Shown piece after piece: positions 1 to 29,402 of a stretch of DNA of 64,000 nt. How positions within the stretch are numbered: position 1 is the first letter of the stretch; the number at the start of each line of letters is the position of its first letter. The notes under the pieces are model-generated. The model saw only the letters and a list, made by a program, of their open reading frames with translations. It made no database searches and was not told the origin of the DNA. The DNA is from Hormiphora californensis (taxonomy: Eukaryota; Animalia; Ctenophora), in assembly GCA_020137815.1 (NCBI GenBank), contig CM035351.1:7874001-7938000 (forward strand), written 5' to 3'. Both the position numbers and the translations under genes were made by a program.

Positions 1-520
1 TCAAGTTGGGTTATTACTTGCATCACAACTCAAACTATTGTATGCCCCAGAAATTTGAGTTGAAACCGTTTGCCACATACTACAATTGCAAGTACAGATT
101 AAACACCCAATGGCCCCTGGTAAGTGAGGGTTGCAAGGAGGGATGACCAACTAACGACTGTTCTGAGTGTACAGGACGCCAAACTCGTACCAACATCGCT
201 ATTTTACACCACAATAATGTACATAGTATTCGAAAGGGGTTTCATAGTCATAGGTTTTGGTCGAATGTGCCTTCTAACGGTCTCTTAAGGAACATGACAC
301 AGCCAGGTTCGGTAATCGATCCTACGGAAATGCAACCCTTCAGACATGCTAGAAAGGGACTACCACCTAACATCGTGCTACTAAGGTGGGCTACATTAAC
401 TTGTTCAGATATGTTGTTATGTTCTAACCCTGCTTTACGGGGCGCGGTGAGACAGGGTGGAATATCTAATGTTGAAATTAGGTAAAGTAACCTTTTCATG
501 TACAGTTTGTTGGATAAGCA

Positions 521-1304: not shown

Positions 1305-2129
1305 GTACGGACCCGGAACAAATACTTCCGGAAGTTATGCGAGTACCCCGTGTCCCAATGGCAGTCTGATTTAACGTTACGGGACTGCTTCGAGCAGAAC
1401 CATAAGAGTGTACCCGTGGGCACGTGGTATTGCTCTAAAGACTTAAAAACATACTCTCGAACACTCAATAACGACACATGATAGACAGTGTTAGTTTCGT
1501 GTAACTGTTGTGCAAGGGAGATCAGGGAGAAAGTGGGTCGCTAGCTCTGATCTCTTGCATATCAACCTTCCTTTGACTGTAACACACCTATGTTTTAACA
1601 TATTTTCACACCGAATATAATCGTACTTTTGTGTGACTTTTGAGATCCTAGTGAGAGTTGTAGCAGGCAATGGTCGAGAGGGGGGGCAAGTATAAATATA
1701 GGAAGGAGAGAAAAGGATAAGATCTGTGATCTTGAGAAGTTGAGATCATTTCATTGCATGTTAGTTGCACGGTGAAACTTATAGGTCCAGTTGAGGAAGT
1801 GCCAAAAATAAAACAAATTCCGTGACCTAATAAATTGTTTGTTTACTTAGTCTAAGAGATCTGGTATTTGAAATTATTCCCTCCCCTCGCAGTAGTTCCA
1901 GTGAACGTAGTGACTAATTGGTTGGCTCTTTTTGTACACTGAATCTTTCACAGACTAGTTTCCATGCTCTCACATCTTCTCTTTCTCTCTGTTATTTCAA
2001 GCAATTTTAGCTGTCTGCATCTATCATAGTAACATTGCTTGCTATGTTTGAATGCAGGGTCCTCTCCACAATATACGTCATCACTCTCACAATCATTTGC
2101 TTGATCCCACTTTGCTATATAGGTATATT

Positions 2130-2456: not shown

Positions 2457-2973
2457 GGTGTATTTTATTTGCCTGTTCTATTTTGGGAAAGCATTACAAC
2501 TATGCTGGACTTCTTCAACAATATACTTGAGTAGGGAAAGAAGGGAAGTAGTCCATCTTGCATGTTATAAAATGTTGTGGCACTGTTATATATAGGGATA
2601 TATCTTGACTCTTGAGAACCCTTTTGCCTTGTTGCACACGTGAACTTTACTCAATTCTCCATTCGTGTTGTATATTGCGCTCTAATCCAGCTATAACAAC
2701 GAGTTGAAGCTGCGATCAATAACCATGAGGTTACCTGCCAATTAGCATGGTCTCCCCCCTCCACAACAACACCCTCTGTTATGTTAATCGAGATAGCTCG
2801 AGTTGCCACTCCAAACTTGCTAGTTTGGAGTTATTAACCTTGCTGTACACAACTTCAATTGCACCTCATGCCTTATAAAATTTAGTTACCTATAAACCTT
2901 TCTATATACACAACTTCAATATTGAACCTTATTCTATAGCAACAGATTTAGTGTGGTTTGTAGTATCTCTCCA

Positions 2974-5918
<2,945 letters not shown>

Positions 5919-7012: not shown

Positions 7013-10000
7013 ATGTCGCTCTTCAACGCCATGAAGGCGCTCAAATACCTTGGCAACATGGATGGGTATAAGGAGGTGATAATCGAGACTCCTCTCACGA
7101 CTACCATCGAGGGACCAGCCAACAGTGTCTCAGAGATACCCCAACCTCACGGCATCCCAATGTCCATGATGCTCCATGTGAGTTCAACGCGTTACCATGG
7201 CAACCATTGTTTTGTACTTGCTTGTAGTGGGAAAACGGTAATGGAAAACTGAGATACAGTAAGACGACACGCAACCGTGGCCAATCAGGGCGCTAGTACG
7301 TGCTGAACACATGCACTTTTTGCCGCACGTTATGCAACGTGCACGTCTCCTTACTGTATTTCTATTACGGTAATACGACTACAAGCAGCACTGTTACACT
7401 TATCCAACTTTGAAACATTGTTTCAGGACGAGAATATTTCAACGGGCAAGTTTAAAGGAAGGAGAGCGGGGACAGGGAGCATTACAGAGAATCCCTTGGT
7501 GGTTGATGTAGAGGCGGATAGGGATCAGAGGCCATCAATGTGGCAAAACAACCTCTCAGGACTATCTGTAAGTCTAACTGTCTTGATATTTGGCGTTTTA
7601 ACTGCCTCCAGACCTATAGCTAGCGTTTATTCGTCTTTACAGGGAGCATTATTGAGAATGGGCGATGTAGCGAGTATGGAACCTATTTCACAGGCGGCTG
7701 GCCCCCTTCCTTATGCAGTATCACAATGAGATGCTGAATACAGAAGTTAACCTGAACCACATCGGAGATGATACCTTTCGGATCGATTCACTGAAGGAAG
7801 CTTACCTAGAACCGTATGTATCATTGCAGCTGTCCCAAGTTCCTTTCCAACAAACGTTTAGTGAATTGTGACACACATGTGACATGATCTCCCGCAGGAT
7901 GTAAGAAGCTGAACCATGAGATTTGTTCGGTGAACATTAGGAAGGCCATCCTGTACCAATCTAGAAGTCTACTGAAGATCATAATTCGAGCTCATAAACT
8001 AAAGTTCATCAAAAATCCAAGGGGCCATATTGTCAACCGAGACAAATCAAGCATTGTCAACATGTTGGATATTTTCAGGTAAATTTTAGAAACTTGTTAG
8101 AAATATACTAACAAACGAAACCCCATCAATTAGAATACAACTTTTGCTACTCCTAGTGAAATACTACAGGAACAAAGAGCTAAATGCCGCTTTTTGGTTT
8201 GTATTTTAGAGAAGTTTGATGTTATATCACTTCCTGCAGGATGTCGCCCCTAATGACGGCGGTGAAGGTGGGTAATGTGAAGGTTGTCAAGTTGCTGCTG
8301 GAGTACGGGGCAGATCCTCTCAACATCAACACTACAAACGAAACAGCACTCTCCATCGGAATCAAGGTACTGAACCATGGTTTATAGAAGCACTTGATCA
8401 ACTATTATTCGGTAGAAACCTTGTCAGAGCATTGACCTGACCCTAGGGAACACACATAATCAACTCTAATTCTATATAACCCCCCTTGTTCCCCCTCCAA
8501 CCCTTATTCCCCTCGACCAGCACTACAATGAGGAGATGATTGAGCTGTTGATAGAGTACGGTGCAGATATTGGGGTATCGCTGTGCATCGCTGGACTCAA
8601 CCGAACCTCTCCCCCTTCACGCTCACAAGAAGCAGTCCCAAGGCATCAACTCTCCGTCTATGGGGTAATTTAACTGATTTCGTTGTCCTTACTTCTAAAT
8701 TTCGAAAACGAGCTGAAACGACGCCCAAAAACTAATTTATTTCAGGATATCCCATTACGGGTTCTCCTTCGAGCCGATATTGATGCTCACTCAGCCTAAA
8801 TTCCTACTAATGACCCGGAACCCTGTTCTGACCGCCTTCAAGGTGGGGACCATCATCAACAAGATAGGAGACAAGAAGGACGAGTACCTGGGTGATTGCG
8901 ACATGCTGGAACAACAAACAGACGACTTTGCGTATTACTACCTGGATCAGTGCAGGACAATGTGGGAGGCCCTCATGCTACTTCACGATCAGGGTGCCGA
9001 CCAGGGGAACGACCTGCTGGACTATGCTATCAAGAAGAAGAAAATGAAGTTCATTTCTCATCACTTTTGTCAGCAGTATATGATGGACACTTGGTACGTA
9101 TTATAGTGAGGGAAAGAAGGATATAAAAACAACCAGCCATCTTAGATCTGACATCTGAGATGTAAGAAATGGTTGATAGACACGTCATTTATTCAGGTAC
9201 GGTGGAGTGCAAAGAGGGAGAACAACGAACACGTGCAAGAAACTGTTTACCCTCCTGATTCTCCACATCATCTTCCCCTTCTTCCTCCTTCACAGCGTCT
9301 ACATCTTCGCCTCTAACTTTGACCTGGCGAACTTCACTAATTTCGGCAACACCAGACCCATGACCCTGTGGAGAAGCCTGCACGTGCCTGTAGTTAGTTT
9401 TGTGGTGGATTTCTTTAATTTCCTTGTTATGATCGTCATCATGATTGCCACGTGTTTAACTGAATCCGATACATCTGAGGACAGCCACTTTTATGATGGT
9501 CCAGAGGTAATTGATGTAATACCTACCCAAATACCCAATTATACTGCCACAGAAAGTTTATTTACCGGACTTCTAGCGCCAGGAACGATAAATGTACGGT
9601 TTATTCAGACGAGTAACTAATTGGTTGACTTATTAACTAATTGATTAATTATTCAGATATTTCTGTGGATGTGTTTGGCAGCTCGGTTCATGGTTGAACT
9701 CGACAAGATCAGGACACAGGGTCGGCACTTCTTTAAGCACGTTGGCAATGTGGTGGATCTGTCTGTATCCATGTCAATTATCATCACCGTCCTGCTGAGA
9801 ATCGTCTCACAAACGACATTCGCAACATACCTAGATGGAAAGTAAGTATTTGGATCAGAACGTCCTCCGTGTATTTATAGATCACCGGCCTAGTGGTTAG
9901 GATGTTTGTATATGATGTTATTTACCGTATGTTTCAGAATGTTCCTGTGGTCCAGTTACATCTACGCCACGGCTTTTCTTGGTTTGATGTTACGGATGCT

Positions 10001-11124
10001 GGAGATGCTGGATATCACATACACCCTGGGACCTCTCGAGGGAGCCATCAGCAAAATGATGACGGTACTTGAAGATCATAGGAATTAGAATCAGAGACCC
10101 TTCTAGAGGGAATTATGAAACTGTCAGCTTTCATTGAAAGTCGTCATTTAACATCTTCTCCCTCATTTGTAGGATGTAATAAAAGTTTGTGTTCTACTTG
10201 CGATATGCATGCTTGGGTTCAGTGTTTCAATATGGACTGTAACCCTTCAATCATACACCTACGAGAGCAGTTTAGAAAACAGAAGCGATACAGCCGGGGA
10301 ATTATCTTATCCAGAGTACTTTAGCTCGTTCAATACAACAATAATTACTCTACTGTGGTCTGCTATGGGTCTGATTGAGCCCGACAACATTGCAATTAGC
10401 TACAACTCAAATGCAGACGCTTATCTAAAGGTAAAACTGACGAATTCATACAATATTTGAGGTAGCTATTTTGTCACTTGTTAGTCAAATGTAGTGGGTA
10501 ACGATTCCGTTCGTTGGATCCTATGTTCACACTAATATTCAATGGTGCTAATGAAATATCCAACAAATCTCTCTCTCTTGTCAGGTGTTATGGGGATCAT
10601 ACATTCTTACTGCCATGATTCTCTTCCTAAACATGCTGATTGCAATGCTCACAGAGACATATGTGTCGGTCATAAACAACGCTGAAACTGAGTGGAAGTT
10701 CGCCCGATCAGTGGTGGTGGTAAAATACACAGGAACCCACCCCTTCATATTTCCCTTCAACCTCATCCTATACCCCGTGTTCCTTGTGTACCATCTCATT
10801 CAGTCCAAGTATGATAGGAAGAGGATCAGGAAGTTTGGGGAGGAGGACGAGGAAGCGATGAGACAATCAGGATTCCTACACTTGGCCATCAAGGAGCGGT
10901 TCAAGGAGAAGTTTAGCGATCTCCTAGACCTACCCTACTACTACCGAAAGAATATATTTGATTTTTACGCGACGGCCCCACTTGTTCAGCAGAAAAAGAA
11001 GAAGGATAAAGATAGCAGCAGCACCAAAACAGCGACTCGTAAAAATAGAACTCAGAGTATGGTTACTCAAAGTAGGATAACCGATTTAAGTGATGACGAC
11101 AAATCAAGTCTGAAATCCGACTAA
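7013..11124 (+). CDS. TRPC-like transient receptor potential channel with N-terminal ankyrin repeats (multi-exon)
   Basis: Ankyrin motifs SPLMTAVKVGNVKVVKLLLEYGAD and NEEMIELLIEYGAD; TRPC linker NPVLTAFKV...DFAYYYLDQCRT...LLDYAIKKKKMKFISHHFCQQ...W; pore region FSSFNTTIITLLWSAMGL; S6 LFLNMLIAML; TRP box EWKFAR. Confidence 0.92.
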
Positions 11125-11564: not shown

Positions 11565-13842
11565 TCAAGGCAGCATTTCAAAAGGACGCCTGACCCTTGA
11601 GATTCGAATGAACCTTGAGCACCTCCTAAATTGTGGGGAGCAGAGTTTTACTAGCACAATCACACCCAGGATCGCCATTAGCAGTACAATATAAACATCG
11701 AGACGCTGGTGGACTGGAGTCACTATTTCACCGATATAGACAGGAAGTGGATCAACATAGAGGTGGTTTTCGATCATAGCCTTTACGAAGATGGTGAGGG
11801 CTCCACCCGCTACTGAACTCATGTGCATCATACAACCATCTGATATGATGAGGGGGGAATTAAAAATATATGTAGATAATCTATCTGAAATATGGATATT
11901 AAACATGTTCTACTCGCCACTTTACTAGAATCATACCTCTTAGTTCGGCCTCTGAAAGAGGTTTTCTCATGGCAAACTTTTCCGCTGCTCCTGCGTTCTG
12001 CTCTTCAATCCCACCGTTAAAAAGATTTCGTCGTGCTGCCGCCCTGAGATTTATAAGCTGGTTGTCCACACACAGCAAACCGAACCAAGGGCCTTTTTCG
12101 CGGCATTGTGCACAGTATATACTTGTTTCAGTTTCACAGTTGTAACTAGTGTTTACTAGTGTTTACTACTAGTGACTAGTGTTTACTACTAGTGTTTACT
12201 AGTGTTTACCTTTCCTTTGCTCGTTTTGAGTGGAGGGCGATAGCTTCTGGAAGATGGGATCCATCGTAGGGTGCATAACAACCATCATTTCTCTGCCAAC
12301 CTAGGAGCATGTCCAGTATTCCAGGACGTAGAAAATCTTCCACAAACCCTGCTCCACCACAAAACATGACCTGAACAATACATTAGATATAGTGTTGCTA
12401 CAGATACAGCATGGTTGCCATGGTAACTACAGATACAGCATGGTTGCCATGGTAACTGCACACACACACACACCTGTTCCATAATGAGATCCTGATCTAC
12501 ACCCGGGTCTACACCCCTCTTGAAGATACCCTCCATCTCATTATATATGTTACTGCAGAACAACCTAGCATAGTGAGCCTCAATGGCAGCCCCTCCTCTT
12601 GACTCGATGGCATTGGTACAGTTGAAGTGCTTTAGAAGAAAGAAGAAGAGGAGCTGGTGGGTAACGGAGTACTCCCTCTGACCACTGTCAGTTATCTGCT
12701 GCCAACATTTCTCCGTGATCTAGGGGTATTCATTAATTGTTACAATGAGATCTGATCAGGATTAAAGGGTATTCATTATAATGACACCATATATTTCAGT
12801 GACCGGGTAGAGCTCATTGTTCAGGGGTCATTGTTCAGGGGTCATTGTTCAGGGTTGTAAATGGGGTTGGATGATGTTATGGTGTGAATAGGTGGTGCGT
12901 GCACAACGGTATGAACATTACTTTGTTTTGTTGGGGAAGGAGGGTCGAACAAGGCAAACATTACTCACGGTGCATTTAGAGCCCTTATAGTGACCACTCC
13001 CGATAGTTCCCATTAGACAATCGTCACTCTCCTTCGGCTCGATGAAAAACGAACTTTTTTTACGGAATAACAGACCTATAGGTTAGTGGGGAAATTGAGT
13101 GGACTATGAGGGACCTATGAGATCGTGGAAGTAGGGGAAATTGAGTTCAATTGGGTGTTTTGTTGACCATTATAAGTAAGTGCAGTACACGGTACCTGAA
13201 TCAACTCGTCCGAGAGCGCCAGACAATAAGTTCTGGTATACAAAGGGTTGACTGAGAAGTTCAGAAAACTTTCCGTACTGGACGGCAGCATTTCTTTGGC
13301 ATAGTAAATCCCTCGCCCCTGCTACTTCCCTCGCATACCGGGCAATGTCCGTTACCCTTGCCATGATATCGGGTGTTGGATCTTCAGCATTTAGAATAGT
13401 CGACTCTAGGCCTCCTGTAAACGATATTAACATCAGTTAGGTTTAGAGGGTTCACATGGTCGTGTAGTTCTATCATACATACCTTCAGAGTTCAGGACTA
13501 ACTCTTACAAATATAATGTGTTTGTATCTGAAATTTCGAACTGAACAATTGGGCTATATAGGTATGTGATATATTGACACGTAATATAGAATGTAAATCA
13601 CGACACATTAATTGGCATGTACCTTGTATCATTCTGATTCCCCACATTGAATCGACGATAAGTGAGCCCCTATTCGCATCAAAATAACGGAGAAGATGCT
13701 CTATCGCACTGAGAGTTCTGTTCACATCACTAGATGTGAAGTACGGCCTCCGAACGTGAGATGGTCTAATCAGGACCCCCTCCGTGCTGACGGGTAGCAA
13801 GGCAAGTAGTATGAGGGTGGAAGTGGGACAGGATAGGAACAT
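11565..13842 (-). CDS. UPF0764 / C16orf89-like protein (exons approx. 13842-13623, 13414-13196, 13078-12969, 12719-12474, 12370-12210, 12044-11937, 11840-11565)
   Basis: Signal peptide plus the family motifs ESDDCL...KC|ITEKCW...YSVTHQLLFF, DLIMEQVMFCG..GF...LLGWQRNDGCY and DGCMMHMSSVAGGAL. C-terminal hydrophobic segment. Confidence 0.85.
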
Positions 13843-15508: not shown

Positions 15509-16898
15509 TCATGACACTAAAACTACTAGAGTCACTAGAAGTAGATGTAGGATAGTGTTCTGGAGTCTAGTGGCTGAGTTTCCAACACATACGGGGACGG
15601 AGGGGCACCACTTTTGTTCTGATGTACACGTCACTTGAGAGGAACCCTGAAAACAGAATATATTTCATATTTCATAACTTGGTACTTACTCATATTATGT
15701 TTTTAAATAAAACTAAAACTAAAACTTTGATTTCGTTTGATTGGTATATAACAGCTAACCTGAATTGTATATCCTTTAGAGCACTCAATGGTAGCTACCG
15801 ATCCCACGTTGAAAGGCGGGGCTCCTTCTATTGCACTTTTCTCTGCAACAACCCGGGCATTCGCAACTTGGGCCGTAATGTCACTGCAGCCAGCTGTAGA
15901 ATAACAAAATTAGTGTGTTACCATGGAGATTATATTTGAGAATTTGTTGGTTGCCATGGTTACCTGTACATTTCACCATGTTTGAGAGTGATGGAGAGTA
16001 TCCTGAAGAGAGGCACCTGGTGGAGAACTGGCCAAGTTGATACATCTCCGGAGCGTACCCACTCTTACATCCCACCTGGGGGTTTCAAGAAAATATTCAA
16101 CATGTATTAAGTATCTTCTGAAGAAGTCCATTAAGTTTGTTAACTTTGCTAAACATGAGCGCTATAATATCGATTCTATTTGATTTTACCTTTATGGTAG
16201 CATCAATATCAGGCACTATGGGTGCTGCACTTTTCACCACAGAGAGACTCTTGCTGGGATAGGTTGCTGACCAGTGTTGGGTGCTGTCAGATGGAATAGG
16301 AGAGCACCCCACCGCACACCATGTTGTCACCGCGGTGAAGATATCTGGTACGAAACTACCACTCGTACACTTGACCACCACAACCCCGGCCTGACTTCCA
16401 TCACTAAACGCATCTATTGCACCTTGATCCCTGAGAGGTACAATTTAATAAAACAAAGTGTGCATCTAAATGAATCCCGGAAACGGTCGAGCACTGTGAG
16501 AACAGCGATCTAAATAGAGGATCCCAAAGTTTGGTACATAGCACAGTCCTTTCCTGATAATAAATACATTACTGATGCATGGTTGTCTTCCACTTACACT
16601 CCGTATTGTCCCCGGACATCGTTGGTAAAGACCTGTGTGGCGGGGTATTTACAGGCCACTGTATATGTGTCACCATCCTTGAAGGTCGAGGGAAGGTTGT
16701 TTCCTGTTTTCAGATCCTTTATTTGATCTACTGATATGGTTATCTTATCACTGGAACAGTCTGCTGCCAACGCAATACCTGTAGAGGAGGGGTAGTATAA
16801 TCTGTAATGCATGGTGGGAAAGGTGAAATTAAAAAGTTAGAACGAATAAAATTACCTTGCAGAGTGAGGGTGATGATTGCTAACAGAATAGTGCTCAT
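15509..16898 (-). CDS. Triple CCP/sushi-like GPI-anchor-type surface protein, paralogue 1 (6 exons)
   Basis: MSTILLAIITLTLQ|GIALAADC...YTVACK...VFTN...VVKCTSGSFVPDIF...WCAVGC...VGCKSGY...TRC...KCT|AGC...PPFNVGSVATIECSKGYTIQ|GSSQVTCTSEQKWCPSVPVC, then the hydrophobic tail ILHLLLVTLVVLVS*. Confidence 0.8.
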
Positions 16899-16986
16899 TT
16901 GGATAGCGTACCTTCCAAGTTTACATGACTCTACATTTCAGGGCAGAAGAGGGTTAACAAAACATTGTATATCAAATAAAACACGA

Positions 16987-18487
16987 TCAATAAAAGTAAT
17001 AAATAATAAGAAGTGAGATAAAAATCATTACAAAAGATAATTTATTTAGTTGGGTAGCATGTGAAGCTGTGGCGGCAGTTCCTAATTTACACTCAGGCTC
17101 GCTGGGGTACCACTGCTGGTTCGACAAACATGTCACAAACTCCACGCCCTGGTGGAAAGATTTGAGTAGCTTGATATGCTGTGTCCGTGGTGTGTGTCAG
17201 TATGATTCAAGTCTTGAATTCCAAGGAAGGATGTAACATTACACCTTGGTTGGATAAATCTTTGGATACAAAACATAAATTTACTTAGCATTGCAATACC
17301 TTCGAATATCCACTCACATACAAACAAAAATCGGTTGGAGCACCGGGATGCAATGATACACAAGGTCTTGGGACCAAAACTTACGGGATTGTAATAGCCG
17401 GTGGAGCATGATACGGTGGCAATTGCCCCAACCTGGTAGGGTGCAGCCACCTCCGTCTCACTCAGGTCAGGAGTTGTGTCTATCGCACCATTCAGGAAGT
17501 TACTCTTTATGTCCTTACAACCCGCTGTAGAAAAACTTCTGTGACTCGATATTTTTCAAAAATGAGGAGGGGGAGTAGGTAACAACTTACAAGTACATTC
17601 GACGAGAGTGTTTATTGCAGGGTCGTATCCGCCCTCCAGGCACTGGGTATCCAGGGAGCCGGACTGGAGTGTAGCGGGAGCATACCCCTCCCTGCACCCC
17701 ACTTCAATGAAGTTATCTGAGCGGGTTATGGGGGCACCAGTCTTGTGATAGAGATATGGAACTTGCCTTGTAGGTTACCGCATGAAACTTCTCCATGTCC
17801 TCTGGAATTGGGCTACACCCAGGCTGATGGAAATACATGGTGATTTGATATCTGTGTGTAACATACACTTTCAATACCATGATAAGCATTGATTGGAAAC
17901 CGATTACCTAATTACATAATTAATTAATGTACCTGCACACCAAGTACTGATTCCAGTAAAGATATCAGGGGTTATAGTGAGGATTCCAGACTACCTTTTC
18001 ACATTTAACTTCAATCTGCCCCTTCTGGCTCCCATCGGTTGTTATTTCATCTATAATGTCTGTATCCCTGGGATAATGTGTATGAAGTGCAGTTGAAATC
18101 CATCAATCCCATGTGTTTATTCATTCCAAATATTTTACACGTGTGTCTCAAATAGGTTTACTTACACTCCGGAGGTACTCCTGATCTGGTTGACAAACAC
18201 GTGCTTAGAGTTTTTACAAGTCACCGTATACGTTTTATCCTTGGTTAAATAAACAGGGATTATTTTGTCATCATCTTCTTTCTCTGGAACCAACTGGAGA
18301 TCTTTCCTACTTTCAATTAGCTTCTCGCTGAGGCATTTCTCGTCTAGATTTGTCGATTCCTCTTCATCATCGCCTGTGTATGAGCTCAGGTAACATGGAG
18401 TGAACTACCAAAAACAGCCAATTCCGCAATTCCAACATTACCTCTTATAATTGAAAGTGAACTGATAAGTAGCAACAACAACAGCAT
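16987..18487 (-). pseudogene. Triple CCP/sushi-like paralogue 2; three +1 frameshifts in this sequence (pseudogene or consensus error)
   Basis: Colinear with paralogue 1 (MLLLLLLISSLSIIR, YTVTCK..HVFVN, DGSQKGQIEVKC, PDIFTGISTWC, GCSPIP, VGCREGY, PYQVGAIATVSCSTGY, VTCLSNQQWYPSEPEC, hydrophobic tail). The frame breaks near 17992, 17823 and 17767. Confidence 0.7.
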
Positions 18488-18751
18488 AACAAGGGAGGTG
18501 GCCGGTTATTAGACACACACAAGAAGACTATATATCTTGAGAGAGAGAGGTACCTGGTTTCCTGGTTCTGTCCTTGTTACATACACTCACACACACTCTG
18601 TTTTCTCTCTAATAGATAGTGCTTCAATTGCTGCCCCGACCTAGACAAGCAAATACAACTTTGGAGGTTGCCACTTCCAGTCTCACAGTTTCCATGTTTT
18701 GGTTTTACTATGTTACTATTTTCTACGGTGATCTGAGTTTATACCCCCCTT

Positions 18752-20851
18752 ATGAAGGATATGATATTGTTCCTGCTTTGTCAGTTCTTGTCTGGTGGTG
18801 TCTCCACTACGGTAAAAGAGAGACCTGTCTATAACAACTGTGTGGTACCTGGCGGCTGGAAGGATGAACTGGTCGTAGCGCCAACTCCCAGAAACAACAT
18901 TATCCGTAACTCAGAAACCGCCGTGGTAAGCTTACTGAATATACTTGACTTGGGTTTGATAAAGTGGTTTATCAAGAGCAATTTTATACTCCGGCCCCAG
19001 AGAGTTCCGTTTTATAAAAACTGTAATTTCCGGAGCACCTCTTGAGAGACAAAAAGTTGTTGGAGGGTCGCTTGTTGATCTGTTGTTAAACTATTTAACC
19101 AAGTTAAGAGAGGAGCCATACAACATATATATCCGCGATATTCATTTAGTAACCATGGGTAACCATATTTCTCCTTGACAACTCTCTCGGATCAAATTAA
19201 ATCAAATCAACACGATAACAGTCGCATTTATAATATCAAAAAGATCTCCCATGAAAATTAGTATCGCACATTAGTGGGGAGACAGTTTACTGGCTCAGAA
19301 GGCGATGAATGGAAGTAATGAGAAGTTCTAGCTCTGAGATATTCTATTATAGTATGAGACTTATAAAAGCGAGTAGTAGTTATGAACATTGAACCAACTT
19401 GTCACGTCAAATCTATATCTACGTCAATGAAGAAATCTATACTACGTCAATGGAGAGCTTAAAGAGTAAAAACCTGTCGGGAATTGCGCTGACAGTTTTT
19501 AACTGCGAGGGGGGGGGGGTCGGCCGATATATTAACTGAAATAAAGCATCAGGTATATTAAGAAGATTGTACGACAGTAATTCTTCTGTCCCATGCAGGT
19601 GATGTGCAAGAATGCTGGTTTTACATTTATCAACTCTGTGTATGAGATCCAGGGGGTCTACGCCAAGTCGATATTCCAGGACTCTGCAGTGACAGTGACT
19701 TGTAAATACGGGGCCCTCTCACCCAACTTCTTTGAGGGACGAACGAGCTGGTGTGGACGTGAGTATTGATAAAGTTAGATCATGCTAGCAATGCAATGAG
19801 ACGAGAGACAAAGTTAAGCCTTGTTCGAATGTTCGACCCTCTCTCATCCCACGACGGCAGTCCAGAGATAAACGCGAAATAACTAATAAGTGGTGAGGGT
19901 ATCATAGAGCCGAAATTCACAACTGTATTTCCCTTATGTACAGAGGGATGCCCCAAGGCTCCGACGGATGCGTATACGGCTCGGTACGGGAACACGACTG
20001 ATGACCTGGATGCTACTGATCTCTACCAAACAGAAGGGAACCTGGCACCAGTGTACCCTCAACCCATGTACCTTATAAAGTTCTCGTGCAACACCGGGTA
20101 CAACCAGATCTATAATGATAAAGGGTCCGCTTATGTCCGGTGCAACGAGGGTGGCTATGACAGGATTCCTATATTTTGTACATGTAGGTCGAGCTATAAT
20201 ATGAGTCATAAAGTTTCCTTTTATGTTCACAATGAGTCTTTAAGTTTAATATAATGTTCAAAATGAGTCTTAAAGTTTAATATAATGTTCACAATTCAAT
20301 CATTCTACATACGTTAGGCAAACAAGAAACAACCCACTGAGATCTGAACAACTTTATATAATTTCAGCTGGATGTGGGGATCCCGAGCTGACACCTACAA
20401 CAGGGAAAGCCCACACTTTTACCCCGGTACCTGATACAAGTACCATGACCTCCGTGGATCCACCCTACAGAATAGGTAATCATTCATTTAGGTGCTGTAC
20501 TTTTGAAACCACTGTGTATCCGTTTAGACCTAACGGATGAGAGGGTCGAAAAAGGTATCATGTAGATTGTAACATTTCACCCCTACTGCTGCAGGCTCGG
20601 TGGTAACGGTTAACTGTGAAGGTAAATCTGGGGATAATGAGGAGGCAGTCGTTACCTGCACCTCCGCTTATGGGTGGACGGGTAGCCTAGATTGGTCGGA
20701 CCTGGAATGTAGATATAAAGAGCCCACGAACAGTAGTGAAGCAAAGACAATATCCCTGTCAGATTTAAAGAAAAAGAACTCGGCTGCAAACTGTTGGAGC
20801 ATTGTACCATTCGTGATACTGATATCCTTTTTATTATTTGTTGTCCGATAA
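18752..20851 (+). CDS. Triple CCP/sushi-like GPI-anchor-type protein, paralogue 3 (exons approx. 18752-18925, 19599-19758, 19944-20244, 20368-20475, 20595-20851)
   Basis: Signal peptide, KERPVYNNC, VMCKNAGFTFIN, VTCKYGALSPNFF...WCG|QGC, FSCNTGY...VRC...FCT|SGC, PPYRIGSVVTVNC...VTCTSAYGW...C, hydrophobic C-terminus. Confidence 0.8.
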
Positions 20852-20906
20852 CTCAGATCTGTTGATGCCGCCCCAAAATAACACAACACCCTTCCCGTGT
20901 AGCACA

Positions 20907-23185
20907 ATGTGGTTACTAGGATTCCTTCTGTTGCCATTGGCAACGGATGCACTCAAGGAACGCCCGACATACAGTAGCTGTACAATACCTGATGGATACG
21001 AGAAACAACTAAACATCATTCCACCCCTGAGGGACAGGGAGACGCAACATGGACAGACAATAACAGTGCTTTGCAGAACTTCTGGACACACTTTCATGAA
21101 CCACATGTACTCGGTAGGTGGGAATGACGAATTCTTTTTGTGTTTGTTTGTTTGTTGCTTTGTTTGTTTGTTTATTTGTTGCTTTCTTTGTTTGTTTGTT
21201 TGTTTTACTGACTTGCACTCTTTTCAGACTAATGGGGTATCACCAACAGATATTTTCTTCTACTCCTACATTCTGATAACATGTCGGGATGGCTCGCTCC
21301 AGCCTAATATATTCCTTCAGACTAACTGGTGTGACAGTAAGTATGTGGCTGATTTTACAAATCACACAATGCCGCGAAACAGGCCCTTTGTTCAGTTTGT
21401 TGCACGGCTCAAAACCAGATTTTGGACAAAATTCGGTTACTTCTACATGCCAACTACTATAAAGAGATTATCCCAGTAGTTTAACTCAACATTGATTGAA
21501 TTGTTGAGTAAGGGCCGTCTTTCACCCCTTAACCAACAAGGATTGAAGGTATATAACAGTTAACTCCTAAACCACCGAGGGAAAACTTCATAGTTAAATG
21601 ATGCGATTCCTAGTAACTGATCTCTGCGATTGAGTGATCCGGTATCTATAATTCCGGTAAAAGTTGTATCCAATCGTATGTGTCGTGACGGCGTGGGGTA
21701 AAACTGCACAACAACCCTTTTCCTGCTTCCTGATAGAATCGAAATTAGCTGTTAAGCAATTAAACTTTCCCACAATGATGTAAGGCAAAGTAAGATCTCG
21801 ATATATAACTGTTTAGCTCAAGTTATTCCTTCCTCCATGGGCGAAAGTCACGTTAAATTTGGAATTTTGTAATCAATTTATGTAGCTGAATCTCCTTCCG
21901 AAACCCCCAATATCAATAAAATTTCAGAGGGTTGCTCACAGTTCCCGTCCTCGTATTATGCTGCTACATATGGATACACAACACTGGCACGGAGAAAGAA
22001 CCCACTTCGGAATTACGGTAACTAAAAGTTCTTTAATTCTTCCTAAGAACAGATATATGCTATTTTCTCGGAACCAAGGATTATTAAATACCTGCTCGCC
22101 AGACGTTTTAACTATAATGGGATGATCTTGAAGAGTAATAATATATATCTACAAAGGTGGTTAAATGATATTATTGATATAAAGCTGCAGCAGCAGGCTC
22201 CCTCATGAGTCGCAAGGCAGAATTGAACTGCTCTCATCGTGCGTTTTGTCTCGTGAGACAGAAGAAGAGAATTATATCAAAGATATTAAATAGAGTTCCT
22301 GGAAAGCAATTCCATTATACAAGAAATGTGTCTGATATTACTGCAGGTGTGCTACAAGCCCCAGTATCAGCGGACCCTCTCTATGTTGTGACGGCTTCAT
22401 GTCAGCCGGGCTACACCCAGATAGTAGGGGATAATGGAGCTGCCTCCGTTAGATGTACAGAAACGGGATACAACAAGAAACCAATCACTTGCGCTCGTAA
22501 GTATAAACTGGAGCAGCTTCTTGATTTTATAGTAAACCCGAATTCTACAGCTATATAATATAATAGAGGGCTTCATGTTTTCCATAAACTGACATCTCAC
22601 CATTCACAGCGGGGTGTGATGGGTCTATTTACTGGTCTATTTACACAACAATATATGTTTCAGCGGGGTGTGATGCACCTTACAACCTGAACTACGATAC
22701 ACTGGACACGACCCTGTTATTCTCTACTGTCACACCCAACACAGCAGGCTCCGGAGTTGCTGAGTATGCTACCGGAACGGTGGTCAGTGAAATTACAATC
22801 ATGAAACTTGCTCAGACCTATACAGTTTAGGACTGCGAAGACACATAAAAACAACATAATATTACTAATTTGACTAATGTGATAATAACCTCTCTAGATC
22901 ACGGTAGACTGCTACAAGTACGCCACTACAACGGAGAATAGGGACACAATAGTGACCATGACGTGTGTATCGGGGTCGGGATGGAACAATTTAGATGCTC
23001 TGAAAGCCATCGATGGTGGGGCATGTGAGAAGAGCTACACGGGAACGGGACAGCAGTCGAAGGGGCTAAATGGGTCAATGATCATTGATGTACTGACCAA
23101 ACAGAAAAAGGGTGGTTGTAGCTCTATTTCATATTCAACTACTGTTTTTAGTTTATCAATATTTATCATATTCCTTTTTAATTGA
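20907..23185 (+). CDS. Triple CCP/sushi-like GPI-anchor-type protein, paralogue 4 (exons approx. 20907-21113, 21228-21337, 21928-22017, 22347-22496, 22664-22782, 22898-23185)
   Basis: MWLLGFLLLPLATDALKERPTYSSC, VLCRTSGHTFMN, ITCRDGSLQPNIF...WCD, ASCQPGY...SVRCTETGY...TCA, YATGTV|ITVDC...MTCVSGSGW...C, tail TTVFSLSIFIIFLFN*. Confidence 0.8.
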
Positions 23186-23264
23186 ACCTTTTTACAACAA
23201 TGATGTACCTACAATTTCCAAACACTATAACATTTCAAGATAATATCATATTTGTATATATAGC

Positions 23265-24591
23265 ATGCTATGGGCATTCCTACAGTTGATGTTTCTGGGA
23301 ACTGCTACCTCAATAAACTGTGACATAGATCCAATATGGTCGTCATACCTCAACATAGTACCGTTACCCAATGGGAATGCCCTTCAGGAAAACTCAACTT
23401 ACATCATCGCTTGTATCAAGGTTTGTGATGTTAACCGTTTAATGTCGTTCTGGTAGCTACACATTCTCTACCATTAAGTACACTGATCAACAAGCAAACA
23501 ATAAACCTGCAGCTACCAGGGTGGTAGCTAAATCAGTACAACATTTCAGTTCGGGGAGACATTTGTGAACAAGGTCTACGAGACGGAGGGTATAACACAA
23601 ACTGGAGTGTACACAACTGGGGCCATCTCTGTCCAATGCTACGTCAACGGGACTGTGATTCCCGAGTTCTTCGCTGAGACCTATAACTGGTGCAGGAGTA
23701 AGTAGAGCGCCATTGAAGACGTGCTAGATGACTGGGTGACTGCCCCTCTTTGTTTGAACACCCCGATTTTATCTAAACTAAATCCCCATGTCTCAGAAGG
23801 TTGTGTCAGTATCCCTACCACGTCCTACACACTAAAGTACCCTGCTGGATCGTCCCGAACTACAGAGATGCTGAGCCCTGTTGCCCCGGTTGAGGAGGAC
23901 ATCTTGGTGGAGTGTGCAGCCGGCTACGTACAGGTATGATAATGAGGGGTCACAAAGGATCACAAAGGTCCAGGTACTACATCTTCCAGGTATATGCAGC
24001 AAGTGCTGTGTTCTAATGTTGAGATTCTCCCATACAGAACTCCTCTTGAGTTCAGTATCTCCACTGCAAGCGCCACAGTATCTCTCATTCACATTCACTT
24101 TGCTATCATTTTCACCCCTAATTTCCTATCTAGGCGGTTGGCGATACAGGTAGCCAGAAAGTGCAGTGTGAGGGCGGTTCTGGTAACTACAACAACTACC
24201 TAATCAACTGCGTGGAGGGGTGTATGTACCCGATAGAGGGGGAGGGTAGCTCAATCAGCAGTATACCCAGCTATGAGGTGGGACAACCTCCATTCGCCAT
24301 AGGCACCAAACTCAAGGTAAAATTAGCATAGTAATTGTTCTAATATCTATTATCTAACTATTAAATACCATATATAAACCAACTAAACTATTTCTGTAGG
24401 TGGATTGCCGAGGATCTACATCGTCGAAGGAAATTGTTTGCAGGAAGAACCAGGGATGGGAGGGTTTGAGCGACCTGACTTGCAAGAAAAAGACTGTCAG
24501 CATTTTGGGAACAACATCACACGCCACAGACAATTATCATCTCATTTCAGCTCTTCTGTTAGCTCTTGTTACTCTTCATTTCATATTATAA
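23265..24591 (+). CDS. Triple CCP/sushi-like GPI-anchor-type protein, paralogue 5 (exons approx. 23265-23420, 23550-23697, 23797-23933, 24133-24316, 24400-24591)
   Basis: MLWAFLQLMFLGTATSINC, YIIACIK|FGETFVN, VQCYVNGTVIPEFF...WCR|KGC, VECAAGY...VQC...NCVEGC, PPFAIGTKLK|VDC...IVCRKNQGW...C, tail LISALLLALVTLHFIL*. Confidence 0.8.
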
Positions 24592-24677
24592 CGTATACAT
24601 AAGTTGGAGTCTGAATTACTAATTACCACACAAATAATCTTTGGTCTGTGTAATCTTTAGGTGATATGTGATGAACC

Positions 24678-26648
24678 ATGATATCCTTTCTGCTTAGCAT
24701 TCTACTTGGACAGGGCTTCACAGGTACCAAGCAAACTCCTATCTCTAGACTTGGTCCAACTAACTCCTTCAGAAAGAAAGAAAACTAACTCCTTCAGAAA
24801 TCTTATTATAGCTCTCCCCCTGGCTCAACTATCATAGCTCCCTCACAACTCTATTTCAGTTATAGTTATATAGTAACTAATTCTCTCCGAACTACCACTC
24901 TGTTTCAGATGTATCCTATGTTAGGAAGCGAGCTAGTGAGGACTGTTGGGAGGGAGTGAACTGTACCTACTGTGAGGTGCCCACCTACTACATGACTCAA
25001 CTCGTTATAGTACCTAATCCTAGTGGGTACAGAATTAATAATGGCATGTCAGCTACTGTGTACTGCAAAACGGTAGGTTTTTACCATTTCTCCATGATGC
25101 ACATAATTACACTCATCATTCCAAAAGGAATGTATCGTGCGACCCTGTATAACACTGTATTCTGTACTAGAGGTTATAAAGATCTTGCTAAGTTCTTCCG
25201 AACCTCCAAATTTCAAGTCTCTATCTTATCAGGAACCGGAGATATGACAAATTTGTTATTTCAGGGGGGTGACAGTTTCAAAAAATCCGACTTTACAGCA
25301 AGCCACCAATTGCAAACAATCAGATAATTATACTAAGATTTATCCTGTTCCTTATTACAACTCCCTCTCTCCTCCACAGATAGGAAAGAGTTTCATTAAC
25401 TCGGTTCTGGCAGTGTCTAATGTGAACAAGGAGGATGTATTCTTCAACGATGGTATCACAATAAGCTGTGATAAAGGCACCATCTCACCCTCTGTATTTG
25501 AGGACGATCAATGGTGTGCATGTGAGTTTAATAATATGAGTTTGAAAATTTCTGTCAGGCCAATGCTCAGATAGGCCACAACATCAAAGTGTGGACACTT
25601 ATTGTGGACACTTGTTAGTTGTTGTGGACATACGTCCCGTCGTCCCACACCCGGTGTCCCAGTAAATTTGGGACACCGGGGTCCCGCATGGTAATGTCAA
25701 CAAGCCTAGCAAGTGTAAATCCAGTTAAACACTGTATCCAACCAAACTGATGCAATACATGCTATACAAACAAATGAACTGCTGCGTGTAATACTTGATA
25801 GTGTGAATGACTTGTTATACCTTTCATGGAGGCCACAATAAATATTCTGAACAATGAATGAACAACAAACAATGAATTTCTTTACAGATGGGTGTGCAGA
25901 GATTCCTACTGACCAGTACCAGGTCACATACCCAGAGTTATCATACCAAACCGACCTGGCAGTCACACCAGTCTACACTGACTCAACAAAGGTAACGTCA
26001 TGTCGGTACATGAAGTCTCACAAGATCAAGCCTCATTCTAATGGCCGAAGGTGGCCGGTTCGACCACCCTTTTTACTGGAAATGTATTAGGATTTGCGAC
26101 GTCATTAACAACCAACAGAACACCCTCATATTATTTCAGTCGATAAAAGTTGACTGTAAAGCCGGTTATAGTGACGCTGTAGGGGATGCTGGGGAGAAGA
26201 GTGTGCGATGTACCACTAGCGGGTACACAGGGTACATTAGATCCTGTGTGGAAGGGTGTGATTACCCGCTAACTGATGGAGCTCACACACTGTCCGTACA
26301 ACCCAATTACGAGACAGGGTATGCGTATTACCCGGCTAGCGATAACACGGCAATCACTGTAAAGTGCGCTGGAGGTAGGAAAGCTTTATGTTAAAGTGCA
26401 CTGAAGGGAGGCAAACCCAAAACTCGAGAATTGGAAACTGAAGTGATTATTCAAATATGTTACTTTTGTGCTAACCCGCCATTAAATTTTCAGATGACTA
26501 CTCGATTCCGATTTACTGTGTGAAAAACCTGGGCTGGGTCAATACAAACCTACTTTCCTGTGCCAAGACAACTTCTGGTGGAGTGACACCAAATATGAAC
26601 AATTCTCTTTTTGTGCTTTTTATTTCCCTGATTTTATTGGCTACGTAA
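24678..26648 (+). CDS. Triple CCP/sushi-like GPI-anchor-type protein, paralogue 6 (exons approx. 24678-24723, 24909-25072, 25379-25521, 25889-25991, 26140-26374, 26494-26648)
   Basis: MISFLLSILLGQGFT, VYCKT|IGKSFIN, ISCDKGTISPSVF...WCA|YGC, VDCKAGY...SVRCTTSGY...SCVEGC, ITVKC...IYCVKNLGW...C, tail LFVLFISLILLAT*. AATAAA near 26666. Confidence 0.8.
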
Positions 26649-26744: not shown

Positions 26745-28782
26745 TTACCGCTCAATTTCAACATTATGCTTGAGATCAGAAAACAGAACAATCAGAAAGA
26801 GAGCTGTGCTCACTATGAGCAAGAGAGCTAAAGCAGCCGTTACACTGTAATCGAGAAGGGCTACAACAATAAACAGGGCAACAGAGGCAAACATCTTGCC
26901 TCCCCCGTCAATGAGTCCGAAACCCGAGTTCCTTGCCAGGGTCGGGTACAACTGGGGCAGGATCATGTACATAATAACAGACATGGAGGAGAGATTGAAG
27001 ACAAAGAACCCGAGGAAAAAGTACATGGCAAGAACGGGCATGCAGACGAAAAGAAGAATGTTACAGATGGTGGCCAGTAAAGCATACCCTTTGGCAGAGT
27101 CCAGTTGTCCCACTAGTCGGGAGGAGAGGAACGCAGAGGCGGTACCCAGATACAAGACCAGGGATAACAATATCCCGTTAGTAAAGTCCTTGTTGGATAG
27201 GGTCACACATTGCAGAGATGACTCATCAACTGAGCGTCCTGGTTCCTGTGGATCGCCCATCATCTCTAGACCCTCCATCCCACAGTAATCAGTCACCAGC
27301 ATCTTTGTGTAGATGAATATAATGGCCTTGAAAACTGTCTGTAGACAAGAGTTTAGGAACAAAACTTTGAAGGTGTCTGCCCGGAGTTCTGAGCTGCATA
27401 TCAGGATGAAAGAATGATATATCCTCTCAGGTTCTAACAAGTCTGATTCTGATTGGTCGTTCTCTTCGGTGGTAATGATGATTTTCTCAAAAAACTCGGC
27501 AGATTTTCTCGTCTTATATCTGTAAAAAAAGGTTCAAAGGGATTAGAATACTACTTATTACCGTAAAATTTCTATATATACGAATTTATCCTATGAAGGA
27601 GCAGGATAATTACCGCAAAGCTTCAACGACAGCCTGGTGTTGGTTTTTAACACTCAGGTACTTGGGAGACTCTGGTAGGATGAATAGTAGGACTGCAGGA
27701 ACCAGAGCCGGCACTGCTATCACTATTGAGAAGAGTCTCCAGCCGTATGCGTTTAGGAATCCTAGTCCGATAATGTTGGCCAGTGTCATGCCAGCACACC
27801 AGAAGACTGTTATCAGGGAAACTCCTGCTGACCTAGTGAGATATTGTTTAGTGGTGAACTTAAAGCAGTATTCGCCGGGATGCAAGATCATTACTACTGC
27901 TATTAGTAGATAGAGTGTGTTGTACCTAAAGTGTGTGCTGGACACCTCTGCCCAGAAGGTGTAGGCGATGGATAAGGAGCCCCCGTAGTTGAGACCACAC
28001 ATCATAGCAGCAGGTAGGAATATCCAATAGGAGGGAGATACCGCACAAACAAGGGTGAAGATGAACACCATGCCGTTAGTTAACACTGCCGTCTTTCTCC
28101 TGCCGTATCTGTAGAATGTTTGATTATGAAAGTTAAGTTAGTTTTTAGTTTCATTTTCCTCTTTCGCTTATGATGGGGATCCCGATACAGCAAAGTCGTG
28201 GTTATGAAGTAACAGCTATTTCAAGTATGATTGAAATTAAGAATGAATTCATTGTATAACATACTTGTCAGACAGGGGTCCGAATAGTATAGATCCCAGC
28301 CCGGAAGCAGTGAAGGTCAGTGATGTAACAAATGCCACCTGTGTTGCATTAAGATTCCACTCGCACCTGTGACACATGTGTGGGTCAAATGTAGTAAATT
28401 ACAGCTCAGTGTCAAGTACAATTAGTGAACTCGAGAGAGAGAGATGACTGGTTATAACACCTGTCCCATGTACTTACGTGAGGAATGGTACGATGATCGC
28501 AATATAGGCCAGCTGCAGGGACTCTGCCATGGATACGAATCCCAGGGAAACAAGATACATCCCGTCATACCGATTAAAGGGGGACTGATCTAGAATCTCC
28601 TGGACAGACAACCTCTCAGGGGAGTCCAGGGCTAGGGAGTGAAGTTCCCCGGTAATGTGGATTGGAGCTGATGATGATGTCTTGGAGACGAGAGGATCCA
28701 GCTCCGAAACCTCCGTGTCCGACATTTTAGGAAGAACAGCTGATCGCCTCGATGGTGCTGAATCAGACCCACTTTCTGTCAT
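26745..28782 (-). CDS. MFS transporter of the SV2/SVOP (sugar porter-like) group (exons approx. 28782-28478, 28366-28265, 28108-27613, 27519-26745)
   Basis: TM1 SLGFVSMAESLQL; motif A FGPLSDK|YGRRK; GWRLFSI...LPESPKYL; PQLYPTLARNSGFGL; many hydrophobic helices. Confidence 0.88.
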
Positions 28783-29402
28783 TATAAAGATAAAGTATTT
28801 TTACAGCACAGGTTATAGCTAGTAAAACAACAGGTCATCACCACGGGCTTTATATAGAATTTAAAAGGCTAACCAGCAGCAAGGCTTTGTGTTGGAGGAC
28901 CGAGAGAGAACAAAGACCACGGCAGGGTGGTCCTCACACACTATTCGGTGTGTATATTATCACGTGTAACGCCGTGTTGTCCTCTCTCTCTCTGTATATG
29001 TAGACAAAATGAGAAGGCCTACATACATATAAAGGATATGTGTAGAGGTAGACATTGAGATTGAGCCATCAGCATTAAACACAATGTCACAATACTACCC
29101 CAATCATGAGAAGTTATATATGGCCAGTTTAGATACGTTGACTGTCTTTCACAAACTAGACAAATGCCTCAATGACCTTCCCTAATGGGTAACAAATCAT
29201 ACGCACTGTAATATTTTAAAAACCTCATGCCGAAGGATACAAGCTCTTATGCAAAGCACTAAAGCTTTATAAAGCTAAGGTCAGTAGAAGCCGGAAGGAT
29301 GGTAGACTCGCACACAGCTGCACCCACTACCCACACAGCAAGGGGACAGTGATCCTACTATATGATCGCACTACAGAAGAGTAGAAAGGGAGGAAAAGAG
29401 GG

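What the first reader, a model, noticed from the sequence alone, without database searches (positions are those of the whole stretch)
15509..26648. Family of highly diverged triple-CCP, GPI-anchor-type surface proteins: candidate recognition or complement-control locus
Seen: all six share signal peptide, three Cys-bracketed modules and a hydrophobic tail with no cytoplasmic domain. Module 3 of paralogue 1 is a textbook sushi domain (PPF.VGS.A...C..GY...GS..VTC....W....P.C). Modules 1-2 are atypical, with family-specific motifs C...G.TF.N and C..G...P.(I/F)F....WC..GC. Outside the Cys/Trp/Gly framework the paralogues differ strongly. Established: tandem GPI-linked CCP proteins (e.g. CD55 in the RCA cluster) mark self, and invertebrate allorecognition and gamete-recognition loci are clusters of fast-evolving surface proteins. 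Inference: a possibly undescribed, co-expressed surface code.
Basis: partly seen in the sequence, partly recalled or inferred. Interest (0 to 1): 0.72.

Follow-up and report, generated by a model that had tools for sequence, protein, structure and literature searches.

The report
Comb-jelly glue-cell surface protein cluster
Six neighbouring comb-jelly genes encode conserved three-sushi-module proteins, predicted to be lipid-anchored at the cell surface, from a family that includes published candidate genes of the glue cells (colloblasts), so they are likely parts of the still unknown prey-sticking apparatus rather than a fast-changing self-recognition code.

Summary
The six genes are real: signal peptide, three CCP/sushi-fold modules, GPI-type tail; paralogues 23-37% identical. 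Gene 2's three frame breaks are assembly errors. The organism is a ctenophore. The recognition/complement reading is not supported: five of six genes have a one-to-one orthologue (48-59% identical), gene 2 variants are 16 synonymous to 3 non-synonymous (pN/pS 0.055), and ctenophores are reported to fuse across individuals. Two Mnemiopsis family members match, by MD5 checksum, 'colloblast candidate' genes of Babonis 2018 (kept in at least 70% of ctenophores sampled, absent from colloblast-less Beroe and Haeckelia); 12 of those 189 candidates share this size and sushi position. Gene order and module lengths indicate this locus is Mnemiopsis ML02309a-ML023015a, five of whose seven genes are on that list. 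Same-strand genes lie only 55-88 bases apart, suggesting two divergent operons resolved by trans-splicing (untested). Best reading: an ancient colloblast surface family that likely tethers glue to the cell. Function and cell type are inferred, not shown.

The parts
15509..16898 (-). g1, triple-CCP GPI-type gene, 6 exons, 282 aa; near-canonical module 3 (aa 195-257); putative orthologue of Mnemiopsis ML023013a
   Evidence: orthologue P0028 54%; 63-aa module 3 and 25-aa tail equal those of ML023013a
16987..18487 (-). g2, triple-CCP GPI-type gene, 6 exons, about 305 aa; three single extra bases in the window are assembly errors; putative orthologue of ML023012a
   Evidence: 65-aa module 3 at 208-272 versus 207-271 in ML023012a
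18488..18751 (.). 264-base head-to-head spacer between g2 and g3; likely bidirectional promoter (inferred)
   Evidence: sequence
18752..20851 (+). g3, triple-CCP GPI-type gene, 5 exons, 312 aa
   Evidence: 57% to N-terminal half of Mnemiopsis P0001
20852..20906 (+). 55-base spacer g3-g4 with pyrimidine-rich AG 4 bases before the g4 start; candidate trans-splice acceptor
   Evidence: inference
20907..23185 (+). g4, triple-CCP GPI-type gene, 6 exons, 320 aa
   Evidence: 59% to C-terminal half of P0001, 57% to P0002; contigs of run X8 (RNA by guess) bridge introns 1 and 4
23186..23264 (+). 79-base spacer g4-g5 with AG 1 base before the g5 start
23265..24591 (+). g5, triple-CCP GPI-type gene, 5 exons, 271 aa
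   Evidence: orthologue P0008 48%
24592..24677 (+). 86-base spacer g5-g6 with AG 17 bases before the g6 start
24678..26648 (+). g6, triple-CCP GPI-type gene, 6 exons, 281 aa; canonical AATAAA 17 bases after its stop
   Evidence: orthologue P0007 58%; X8 contig ends fit spliced exon 1
16899..16986 (-). 88-base spacer g2-g1
7013..11124 (+). Ankyrin-repeat TRP channel gene, second neighbour left of g1; synteny anchor, putative orthologue of colloblast candidate ML023015a
11568..13842 (-). DUF4735 gene between the TRP gene and g1 (would be ML023014a)
   Evidence: Pfam PF15882 E 5e-20

Best explanation
This is an old, conserved cluster of six ctenophore genes for three-CCP proteins predicted to be GPI-anchored, likely made together in colloblasts (tentacle glue cells), where they would coat the granule and apical membrane and tether the glue, and so the prey, to the cell. 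Shown: gene structure, purifying selection in g2, one-to-one orthology, family link to the published colloblast candidate list. Predicted: CCP fold of all three modules, GPI anchor. Inferred: (a) this locus equals Mnemiopsis ML02309a-ML023013a; (b) one bidirectional promoter drives two operon-like units (g2-g1 and g3-g4-g5-g6) cut apart by spliced-leader trans-splicing; (c) the membrane-distal module 1, with a family-specific helical insert, is the binding end, while modules 2-3 act as a stalk; (d) the ligand is glue or matrix protein. Odds: colloblast/tentacle-specific family about 0.75; adhesion-tether role given that about 0.6; operon about 0.5 and independent of the rest.
For: MD5 of 2 of 56 fetched proteins equals 2 of 16 digests tested from the colloblast-candidate table: P0045 = ML17015a, P0054 = ML079812a; they match g1 at E 3e-45 and 4e-31. 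12 of 189 candidates are 243-326 aa with one Pfam Sushi hit starting at aa 172-240, against 1 unlike protein among 165 tentacle candidates. ML02309a, ML023010a, ML023012a, ML023013a and ML023015a are candidates; four share the 27-gene cluster peaking at 11 and 14 h of development. ML023015a is an ankyrin TRP channel two genes from ML023013a, as is the TRP gene here; module-3 spans 63 and 65 aa agree. g3-g4 order is kept in Mnemiopsis (fused model P0001). Tree: five orthologue groups at 95-100/93-99 support. g2 exons 2-4, 187 codons: 16 synonymous, 3 non-synonymous sites, pN/pS 0.055, p 2e-8. Models pLDDT 78 and 92; top Foldseek hits all CCP chains, best E 6e-9; module 1 fits C1s CCP1 at 2.8 A over 66 residues, module 2 CR2 at 2.4 A over 59. 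Spacers 55-88 bases, no canonical AATAAA inside, one after g6; ctenophores trans-splice widely (PMC8527503).
Against: No expression by cell type was seen for any of these genes: the single-cell paper was not held and three other supplements had no entry. In the source study only 46 of 138 expressed candidates were up in adult tentacle bulb and 29 fell in putative colloblast cells, so list membership is not proof. The ML0230 assignment rests on order and lengths, not on sequence; ML023011a is not on the list, and ML023010a (404 aa) looks like a mixed model. The two checksum matches are paralogues elsewhere in the genome. Absence from Beroe and Haeckelia is taken from the paper, not retested, and several homologues come from unnamed records. 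Embryonic peaks at 11-14 h fit tentacle building as well as glue. No ligand is known. Structural Z-scores are middling (best 6.3). Two short upstream ATGs lie between the candidate acceptor and the g6 start, and the genome is compact anyway (96-base convergent spacer after g6).
Confidence: 0.5

Rival explanations
1. Same colloblast family, but a sensing or discrimination panel: each paralogue binds a different prey-surface feature (or marks own tissue as not to be glued) and gates discharge, possibly through the neighbouring TRP channel.
For: At least a dozen long-kept, highly divergent paralogues suggest distinct ligands; the linked TRP channel is also a colloblast candidate in the same expression cluster; CCP modules are general binding modules.
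Against: No cytoplasmic tail, so a co-receptor is needed; strong purifying selection argues against an arms race with prey; no binding data.
Confidence: 0.2
2. Developmental cell-adhesion code of the tentacle bulb (colloblast precursor, covering cell, nerve contacts), not part of the glue.
For: Putative orthologues peak at 11 and 14 h, during bulb invagination and tentacle outgrowth; architecture resembles tailless wiring molecules (established knowledge).
Against: Bulbs make colloblasts continuously, so these peaks also fit cargo genes; loss in Haeckelia, which keeps tentacles, points to the colloblast itself.
Confidence: 0.18
3. Allorecognition or gamete-recognition locus.
For: Tandem cluster of divergent tailless surface proteins; a few amino-acid variants exist (3 in g2 ectodomain).
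Against: pN/pS 0.055 in g2; among the coding sites listed for g1 (only the 40 best-supported of 346 rows were shown) 11 are synonymous and the 2 replacements lie in the tail; stable one-to-one orthologues; Bolinopsis, Mnemiopsis and Pleurobrachia form chimeras (PMC11565835). Only two samples were examined, and g3-g6 variants were not listed.
Confidence: 0.06
4. Complement-control (RCA/CD55-like) locus.
For: Fold hits include CD55, CD46 and factor H; GPI-type tail as in CD55.
Against: Those hits are 11-24% identical and reflect what CCP structures have been solved; beta2-glycoprotein I and C1s rank as high. Modules 1-2 are 69-99 aa with inserts, unlike 60-aa RCA modules. C3 and factor B are documented from cnidarians and bilaterians (PMC9835746); their absence from ctenophores is recalled, not tested here.
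Confidence: 0.02

Closest known systems
Sushi-bearing 'colloblast candidate' genes of Mnemiopsis leidyi (Babonis et al. 2018, PMC6278862), e.g. ML17015a, ML079812a, ML023012a, ML023013a
   Same: Same protein family (two checksum matches); same size and sushi position; probably the orthologous locus.
   Different: In the passages, section and supplement parts I read, they appear only as a sushi/SCR enrichment term and InterPro rows; the three-module build, GPI-type tail, family unity, tandem cluster and tight spacing are not described there.
CCP/sushi/SCR module (Pfam PF00084), e.g. beta2-glycoprotein I, C1s CCP1, factor H
   Same: Four-Cys modules with Trp before the last Cys in modules 1 and 3; predicted fold superposes at 2.4-3.2 A per module.
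   Different: Module 1 is 80-99 aa with a helical insert, module 2 69-77 aa; both mostly invisible to Pfam; in g3-g6 module 3 is also divergent.
CD55/DAF and the RCA cluster
   Same: Tandem genes, CCP chain, GPI-type tail, no cytoplasmic domain.
   Different: Three modules not four, no long Ser/Thr stalk, under 20% identity, no known complement target in the phylum.
Invertebrate allorecognition loci (Hydractinia Alr, Botryllus fuhc/fester; recalled)
   Same: Clustered divergent surface proteins.
   Different: Those are hyperpolymorphic and mostly transmembrane; these are conserved, under purifying selection, tailless.
Trans-spliced operons of nematodes and tunicates (PMC7986045)
   Same: Same-strand genes under about 100 bases apart; internal AG just before the start; gene predictors fuse neighbours.
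   Different: Not shown by leader reads here; the ctenophore genome paper I searched has no occurrence of 'operon' or 'polycistron'.

Membership tests
CCP/sushi module | Four framework cysteines per module with conserved Trp/Gly/Pro | tested here: met
   12 Cys invariant in 20 of 20 aligned members; module-3 Trp 20/20, module-1 Trp 17/20; module 2 has Tyr/Trp
CCP/sushi module | CCP beta fold in each module | tested here: met
   Predicted models of orthologues P0002 and P0028; single-module fits: module 1 Z 5.8, 2.8 A, 66 aa; module 2 Z 4.8, 2.4 A, 59 aa; module 3 Z 3.8, 3.2 A, 63 aa; Foldseek E to 6e-9. Z is middling, but the listed hits are CCP-type domains almost throughout
CCP/sushi module | Pfam PF00084 above cut-off | tested here: inconclusive
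   Met for module 3 of the g1 orthologue and 7 other full-length members, not for g5/g6 orthologues; window exon pieces below cut-off
CCP/sushi module | 1-3, 2-4 disulfide pairing | not tested
   Model coordinates not inspected
GPI-anchored proteins | Signal peptide, omega site, polar spacer, terminal hydrophobic stretch, no cytoplasmic tail | tested here: met
   Rule-based check, 6 of 6 window proteins and 13 of 14 homologues (P0041 has a longer charged tail); no trained predictor available
GPI-anchored proteins | Anchor attached in vivo | not testable with these tools
   Needs PI-PLC release or omega-site mass spectrometry
Regulators of complement activation (RCA) | Sequence orthology to CD55/CD46/factor H | tested here: not met
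   No RCA-like protein among 43 hits of the exhaustive profile-free search, all best hits are family members; structural matches 11-24% identical
Regulators of complement activation (RCA) | C3b/C4b binding; C3 present in the organism | not testable with these tools
   No genome held; papers read give no text statement on ctenophore C3
Allorecognition loci | High amino-acid polymorphism, diversifying selection | tested here: not met
   g2 pN/pS 0.055, 19 sites, two samples; partial list for g1 agrees; g3-g6 not listed
Allorecognition loci | Genotype predicts fusion or rejection | not testable with these tools
   Ctenophores of three genera fuse (PMC11565835)
Colloblast candidate gene set (Babonis 2018) | Family members are on the list | tested here: met
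   MD5 identity for ML17015a and ML079812a
Colloblast candidate gene set (Babonis 2018) | These six genes' own orthologues are on the list | tested here: inconclusive
   Gene order and module lengths fit ML02309a-ML023013a; no ML0230 sequence retrieved
Colloblast candidate gene set (Babonis 2018) | Expression in colloblasts; absence from Beroe and Haeckelia | not testable with these tools
   Single-cell paper not held; no named Beroe data searchable
Trans-spliced operon | Same-strand genes under about 100 bases apart with acceptor before the downstream start | tested here: met
   4 of 4 internal same-strand junctions, 55-88 bases; last AG 1-17 bases before the start
Trans-spliced operon | Spliced leader on downstream mRNAs; polycistronic precursor | not testable with these tools
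   No RNA holder listed; P0002 and P0008 share the same longest-contig length, 4823, a hint only

The most novel reading that the evidence does not exclude
A phylum-specific family of a dozen or more GPI-anchored triple-CCP proteins is a core component of the colloblast glue apparatus, and this locus is a conserved colloblast gene battery: two divergent trans-spliced operons from one promoter beside a colloblast TRP channel. It would give the first named molecular parts of ctenophore glue and a ctenophore operon tied to one cell type.
Probability: 0.3. Interest if true: 0.82.

Novelty: new variant of a known kind. Interest (0 to 1): 0.62.

Why it matters
The make-up of the colloblast adhesive, a fast underwater glue in the cell type that defines ctenophores, is open: the 2018 study found no homology to known adhesives. 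This finding turns an anonymous domain enrichment into one defined family with a fold, a probable anchor, orthologues and a compact locus that can be probed or knocked out as a unit in Mnemiopsis. If the gene order match holds, it is an eight-gene block kept between ctenophore species, with a possible operon explanation. It also removes a false lead: this is not a hypervariable self-recognition locus.

Tried and rejected
No whole genome held, so genome-wide family size, C3 presence and typical gene spacing were not tested. No RNA holder listed for the stretch; run X8 is RNA by guess and only 80-95% alike, so its intron-bridging contigs show splicing in a relative at best. Run X7 laid nothing. 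g2 as pseudogene: rejected. Word-indexed search with the family alignment returned only 4 proteins, one an unrelated factor XIII B. TRP exon search returned one unnamed protein and no ML023015a checksum match. 14 of 16 digests found no match. Gene IDs ML023010a etc. occur in no searched main text nor, for this locus, in supplements of PMC9525235, PMC10876535 (one scanned file unread) or PMC11184263 (2 of 3 rows seen). Sebe-Pedros 2018 not held. Earlier scan notes: nothing for this genome, one unrelated sushi note. bioRxiv supplements were closed and may hold cell-type data.
Full report
Observation. Three-frame reading and splice-site mapping give six genes between 15509 and 26648: g1 and g2 on the minus strand, g3-g6 on the plus strand, g2 and g3 head to head. 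Each encodes 271-320 aa: hydrophobic N-terminus, three four-cysteine modules joined by a C-x-x-G-C link, a short polar linker with small-residue omega candidates, and a hydrophobic end without a cytoplasmic tail. Pairwise identity is 23-37%. g2 is broken three times in the window; contigs from two samples lack one base at each place, so these are assembly errors. Contigs of run X8 (RNA by guess, 80-95% alike) skip g4 intron 1 and carry ends that fit the next exon at g4 intron 4 and g6 intron 1.

Organism and family. A g3 exon found one protein, Mnemiopsis leidyi KAL5257730.1 (P0001, 66% over the exon), a model that fuses the orthologues of g3 (57%) and g4 (59%) in the same order. An exhaustive search of 1.84 billion representatives with P0001 gave 43 hits. 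I looked up 20 of them; where clusters carry a species it is Mnemiopsis, Bolinopsis or Pleurobrachia, most are unnamed. The window is therefore a ctenophore; I did not determine the species. A tree of 26 rows (six window proteins, 18 longer hits, P0001 halves; short fragments and P0038, P0046, P0055 left out) pairs g1, g3, g4, g5 and g6 each with its own orthologue at 95-100/93-99 support; g2 is sister to the g1 pair, and g3-g6 form one clade. Identity to orthologues is similar in all three modules, about 41-68%.

Fold. AlphaFold models of the g4 and g1 orthologues (pLDDT 78 and 92) hit CCP chains throughout the lists shown (best E 6e-9; whole-chain TM-scores low, 0.16-0.27, as module angles differ). 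Single-module fits cover module 1 (C1s CCP1, Z 5.8, 2.8 A, 66 aa), module 2 (CR2, Z 4.8, 2.4 A, 59 aa) and module 3 (TGM6-D3, Z 3.8, 3.2 A, 63 aa). Z-scores are middling. Module 1 carries two short helices between its second and third cysteine, where the conserved T-F-x-N motif begins; this is the family's own feature and a candidate binding surface (inference).

Selection. In g2 exons 2-4 (187 codons, all 34 variant rows shown, two samples) 16 coding variants are synonymous and 3 are not: pN/pS 0.055, binomial p 2e-8. In the 40 of 346 rows shown for the whole locus, g1 has 11 synonymous and 2 replacement variants, both in the tail; g3-g6 were not shown. Chimeras form in three ctenophore genera (PMC11565835, passages). 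This is the opposite of an allorecognition locus. For complement, the RCA hits are fold-level only; the papers read do not state whether ctenophores have C3 (PMC12849515, PMC9835746, passages), and its absence is recalled.

Colloblast link. Babonis et al. 2018 (PMC6278862; passages, section 6, supplement parts 1-2 and searches) defined 189 genes present in at least 70% of 36 ctenophores and missing from Beroe and Haeckelia, and noted sushi/SCR enrichment. Its table lists 15 candidates with a Pfam Sushi hit; 12 are 243-326 aa with one hit near the C-terminus, the signature of this family. The table gives MD5 digests; 2 of 56 proteins I held match 2 of 16 digests tested: ML17015a and ML079812a, both clear family members. 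Five candidates sit on scaffold ML0230: genes 9, 10, 12, 13 and 15. Gene 15 is an ankyrin TRP channel; here an ankyrin TRP channel is the second gene left of g1, with a DUF4735 gene between. Gene 13 has a 63-aa sushi span and 25-aa tail, as g1; gene 12 a 65-aa span at 207-271, as g2 at 208-272; gene 10 has weak CCP hits and gene 9 none, as expected for g3-g6 types. So this is probably the same locus, though no ML0230 sequence was compared. Genes 9, 10, 13 and 15 share one expression cluster peaking at 11 and 14 h, during tentacle formation. Against: only a third of expressed candidates were tentacle-bulb enriched in adults, gene 11 is not listed, and I saw no cell-type data for these genes.

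Arrangement. Stop-to-start distances are 88, 55, 79 and 86 bases, with an AG 13, 4, 1 and 17 bases before the downstream start, no canonical AATAAA inside, and one after g6; g2 and g3 share 264 bases. Such gaps match nematode and tunicate operons (PMC7986045, passages); leaders are on at least 56% of long reads in one ctenophore, where operons are not mentioned (PMC8527503, passages). Fused predictions (P0001; 767-aa ML04419a) and the equal longest-contig length of the g4 and g5 orthologues P0002 and P0008 fit read-through. Against: the genome is compact (96 bases between convergent g6 and the next gene), two short upstream ATGs precede g6, and no leader read was seen.

Mechanism. Most likely the proteins are co-produced in differentiating colloblasts, anchored by GPI in granule and apical membranes, exposed when the cell ruptures on prey, and bind glue or matrix through module 1, linking the glue to the anchored cell. 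Each step after gene structure, selection and family membership is inferred. Rivals are a prey or self discrimination panel and a developmental adhesion code; allorecognition and complement control are unlikely.

Novelty. Searches for ctenophore with sushi, GPI-anchored/CCP, colloblast with adhesive, markers or ultrastructure, the gene IDs, and operon terms (open-access library only) found the 2018 enrichment and a 2025 immune-repertoire paper that mentions sushi only in lectin and SRCR proteins (PMC11797021, passages). I found no description of this family. It is a new variant of a known kind of protein with a concrete route into an open question. Interest 0.62.

Noticed in passing
window 25150-25295 (g6 intron 2): Very high-copy, self-complementary element (summed contig depth 49,000-347,000 versus about 100-500 around it; opposite-strand joints; one contig of X5 skips it), probably a MITE-like repeat.
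   Followed up: no
window 7013-11124 +: Two-ankyrin TRP channel whose putative Mnemiopsis orthologue ML023015a is itself a colloblast candidate in the same expression cluster: a possible trigger channel.
   Followed up: partly
window 2926-5915 +: Secreted or surface protein with lectin-like segments and about seven 16-aa Asn/Thr/Ser-rich repeats (3826-4356), mucin-like; no Pfam hit on the repeat exon.
   Followed up: no
window 20865-20906: In-frame ATG 14 codons upstream of the g4 start and 13 bases after the g3 stop; trans-splicing at the AG ending 20902 would remove it.
   Followed up: partly
window 17570-18420: The assembly carries many single-base insertions relative to short-read contigs; other broken frames in this window may be artefacts too.
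   Followed up: partly
window 26745-28800 -: MFS/sugar-transporter-like gene converging on g6 with a 96-base gap.
   Followed up: no
window 147-1478 +, 37195-37770 +, 61054-61716 -: Calcium channel alpha2-delta, WD40 protein and Shaker-type potassium channel exons.
   Followed up: no
Mnemiopsis scaffolds ML0441 and ML0724: Further neighbouring colloblast candidates (ML04418a/ML04419a; ML07242a/ML07244a) suggest more tight clusters of this family.
   Followed up: no
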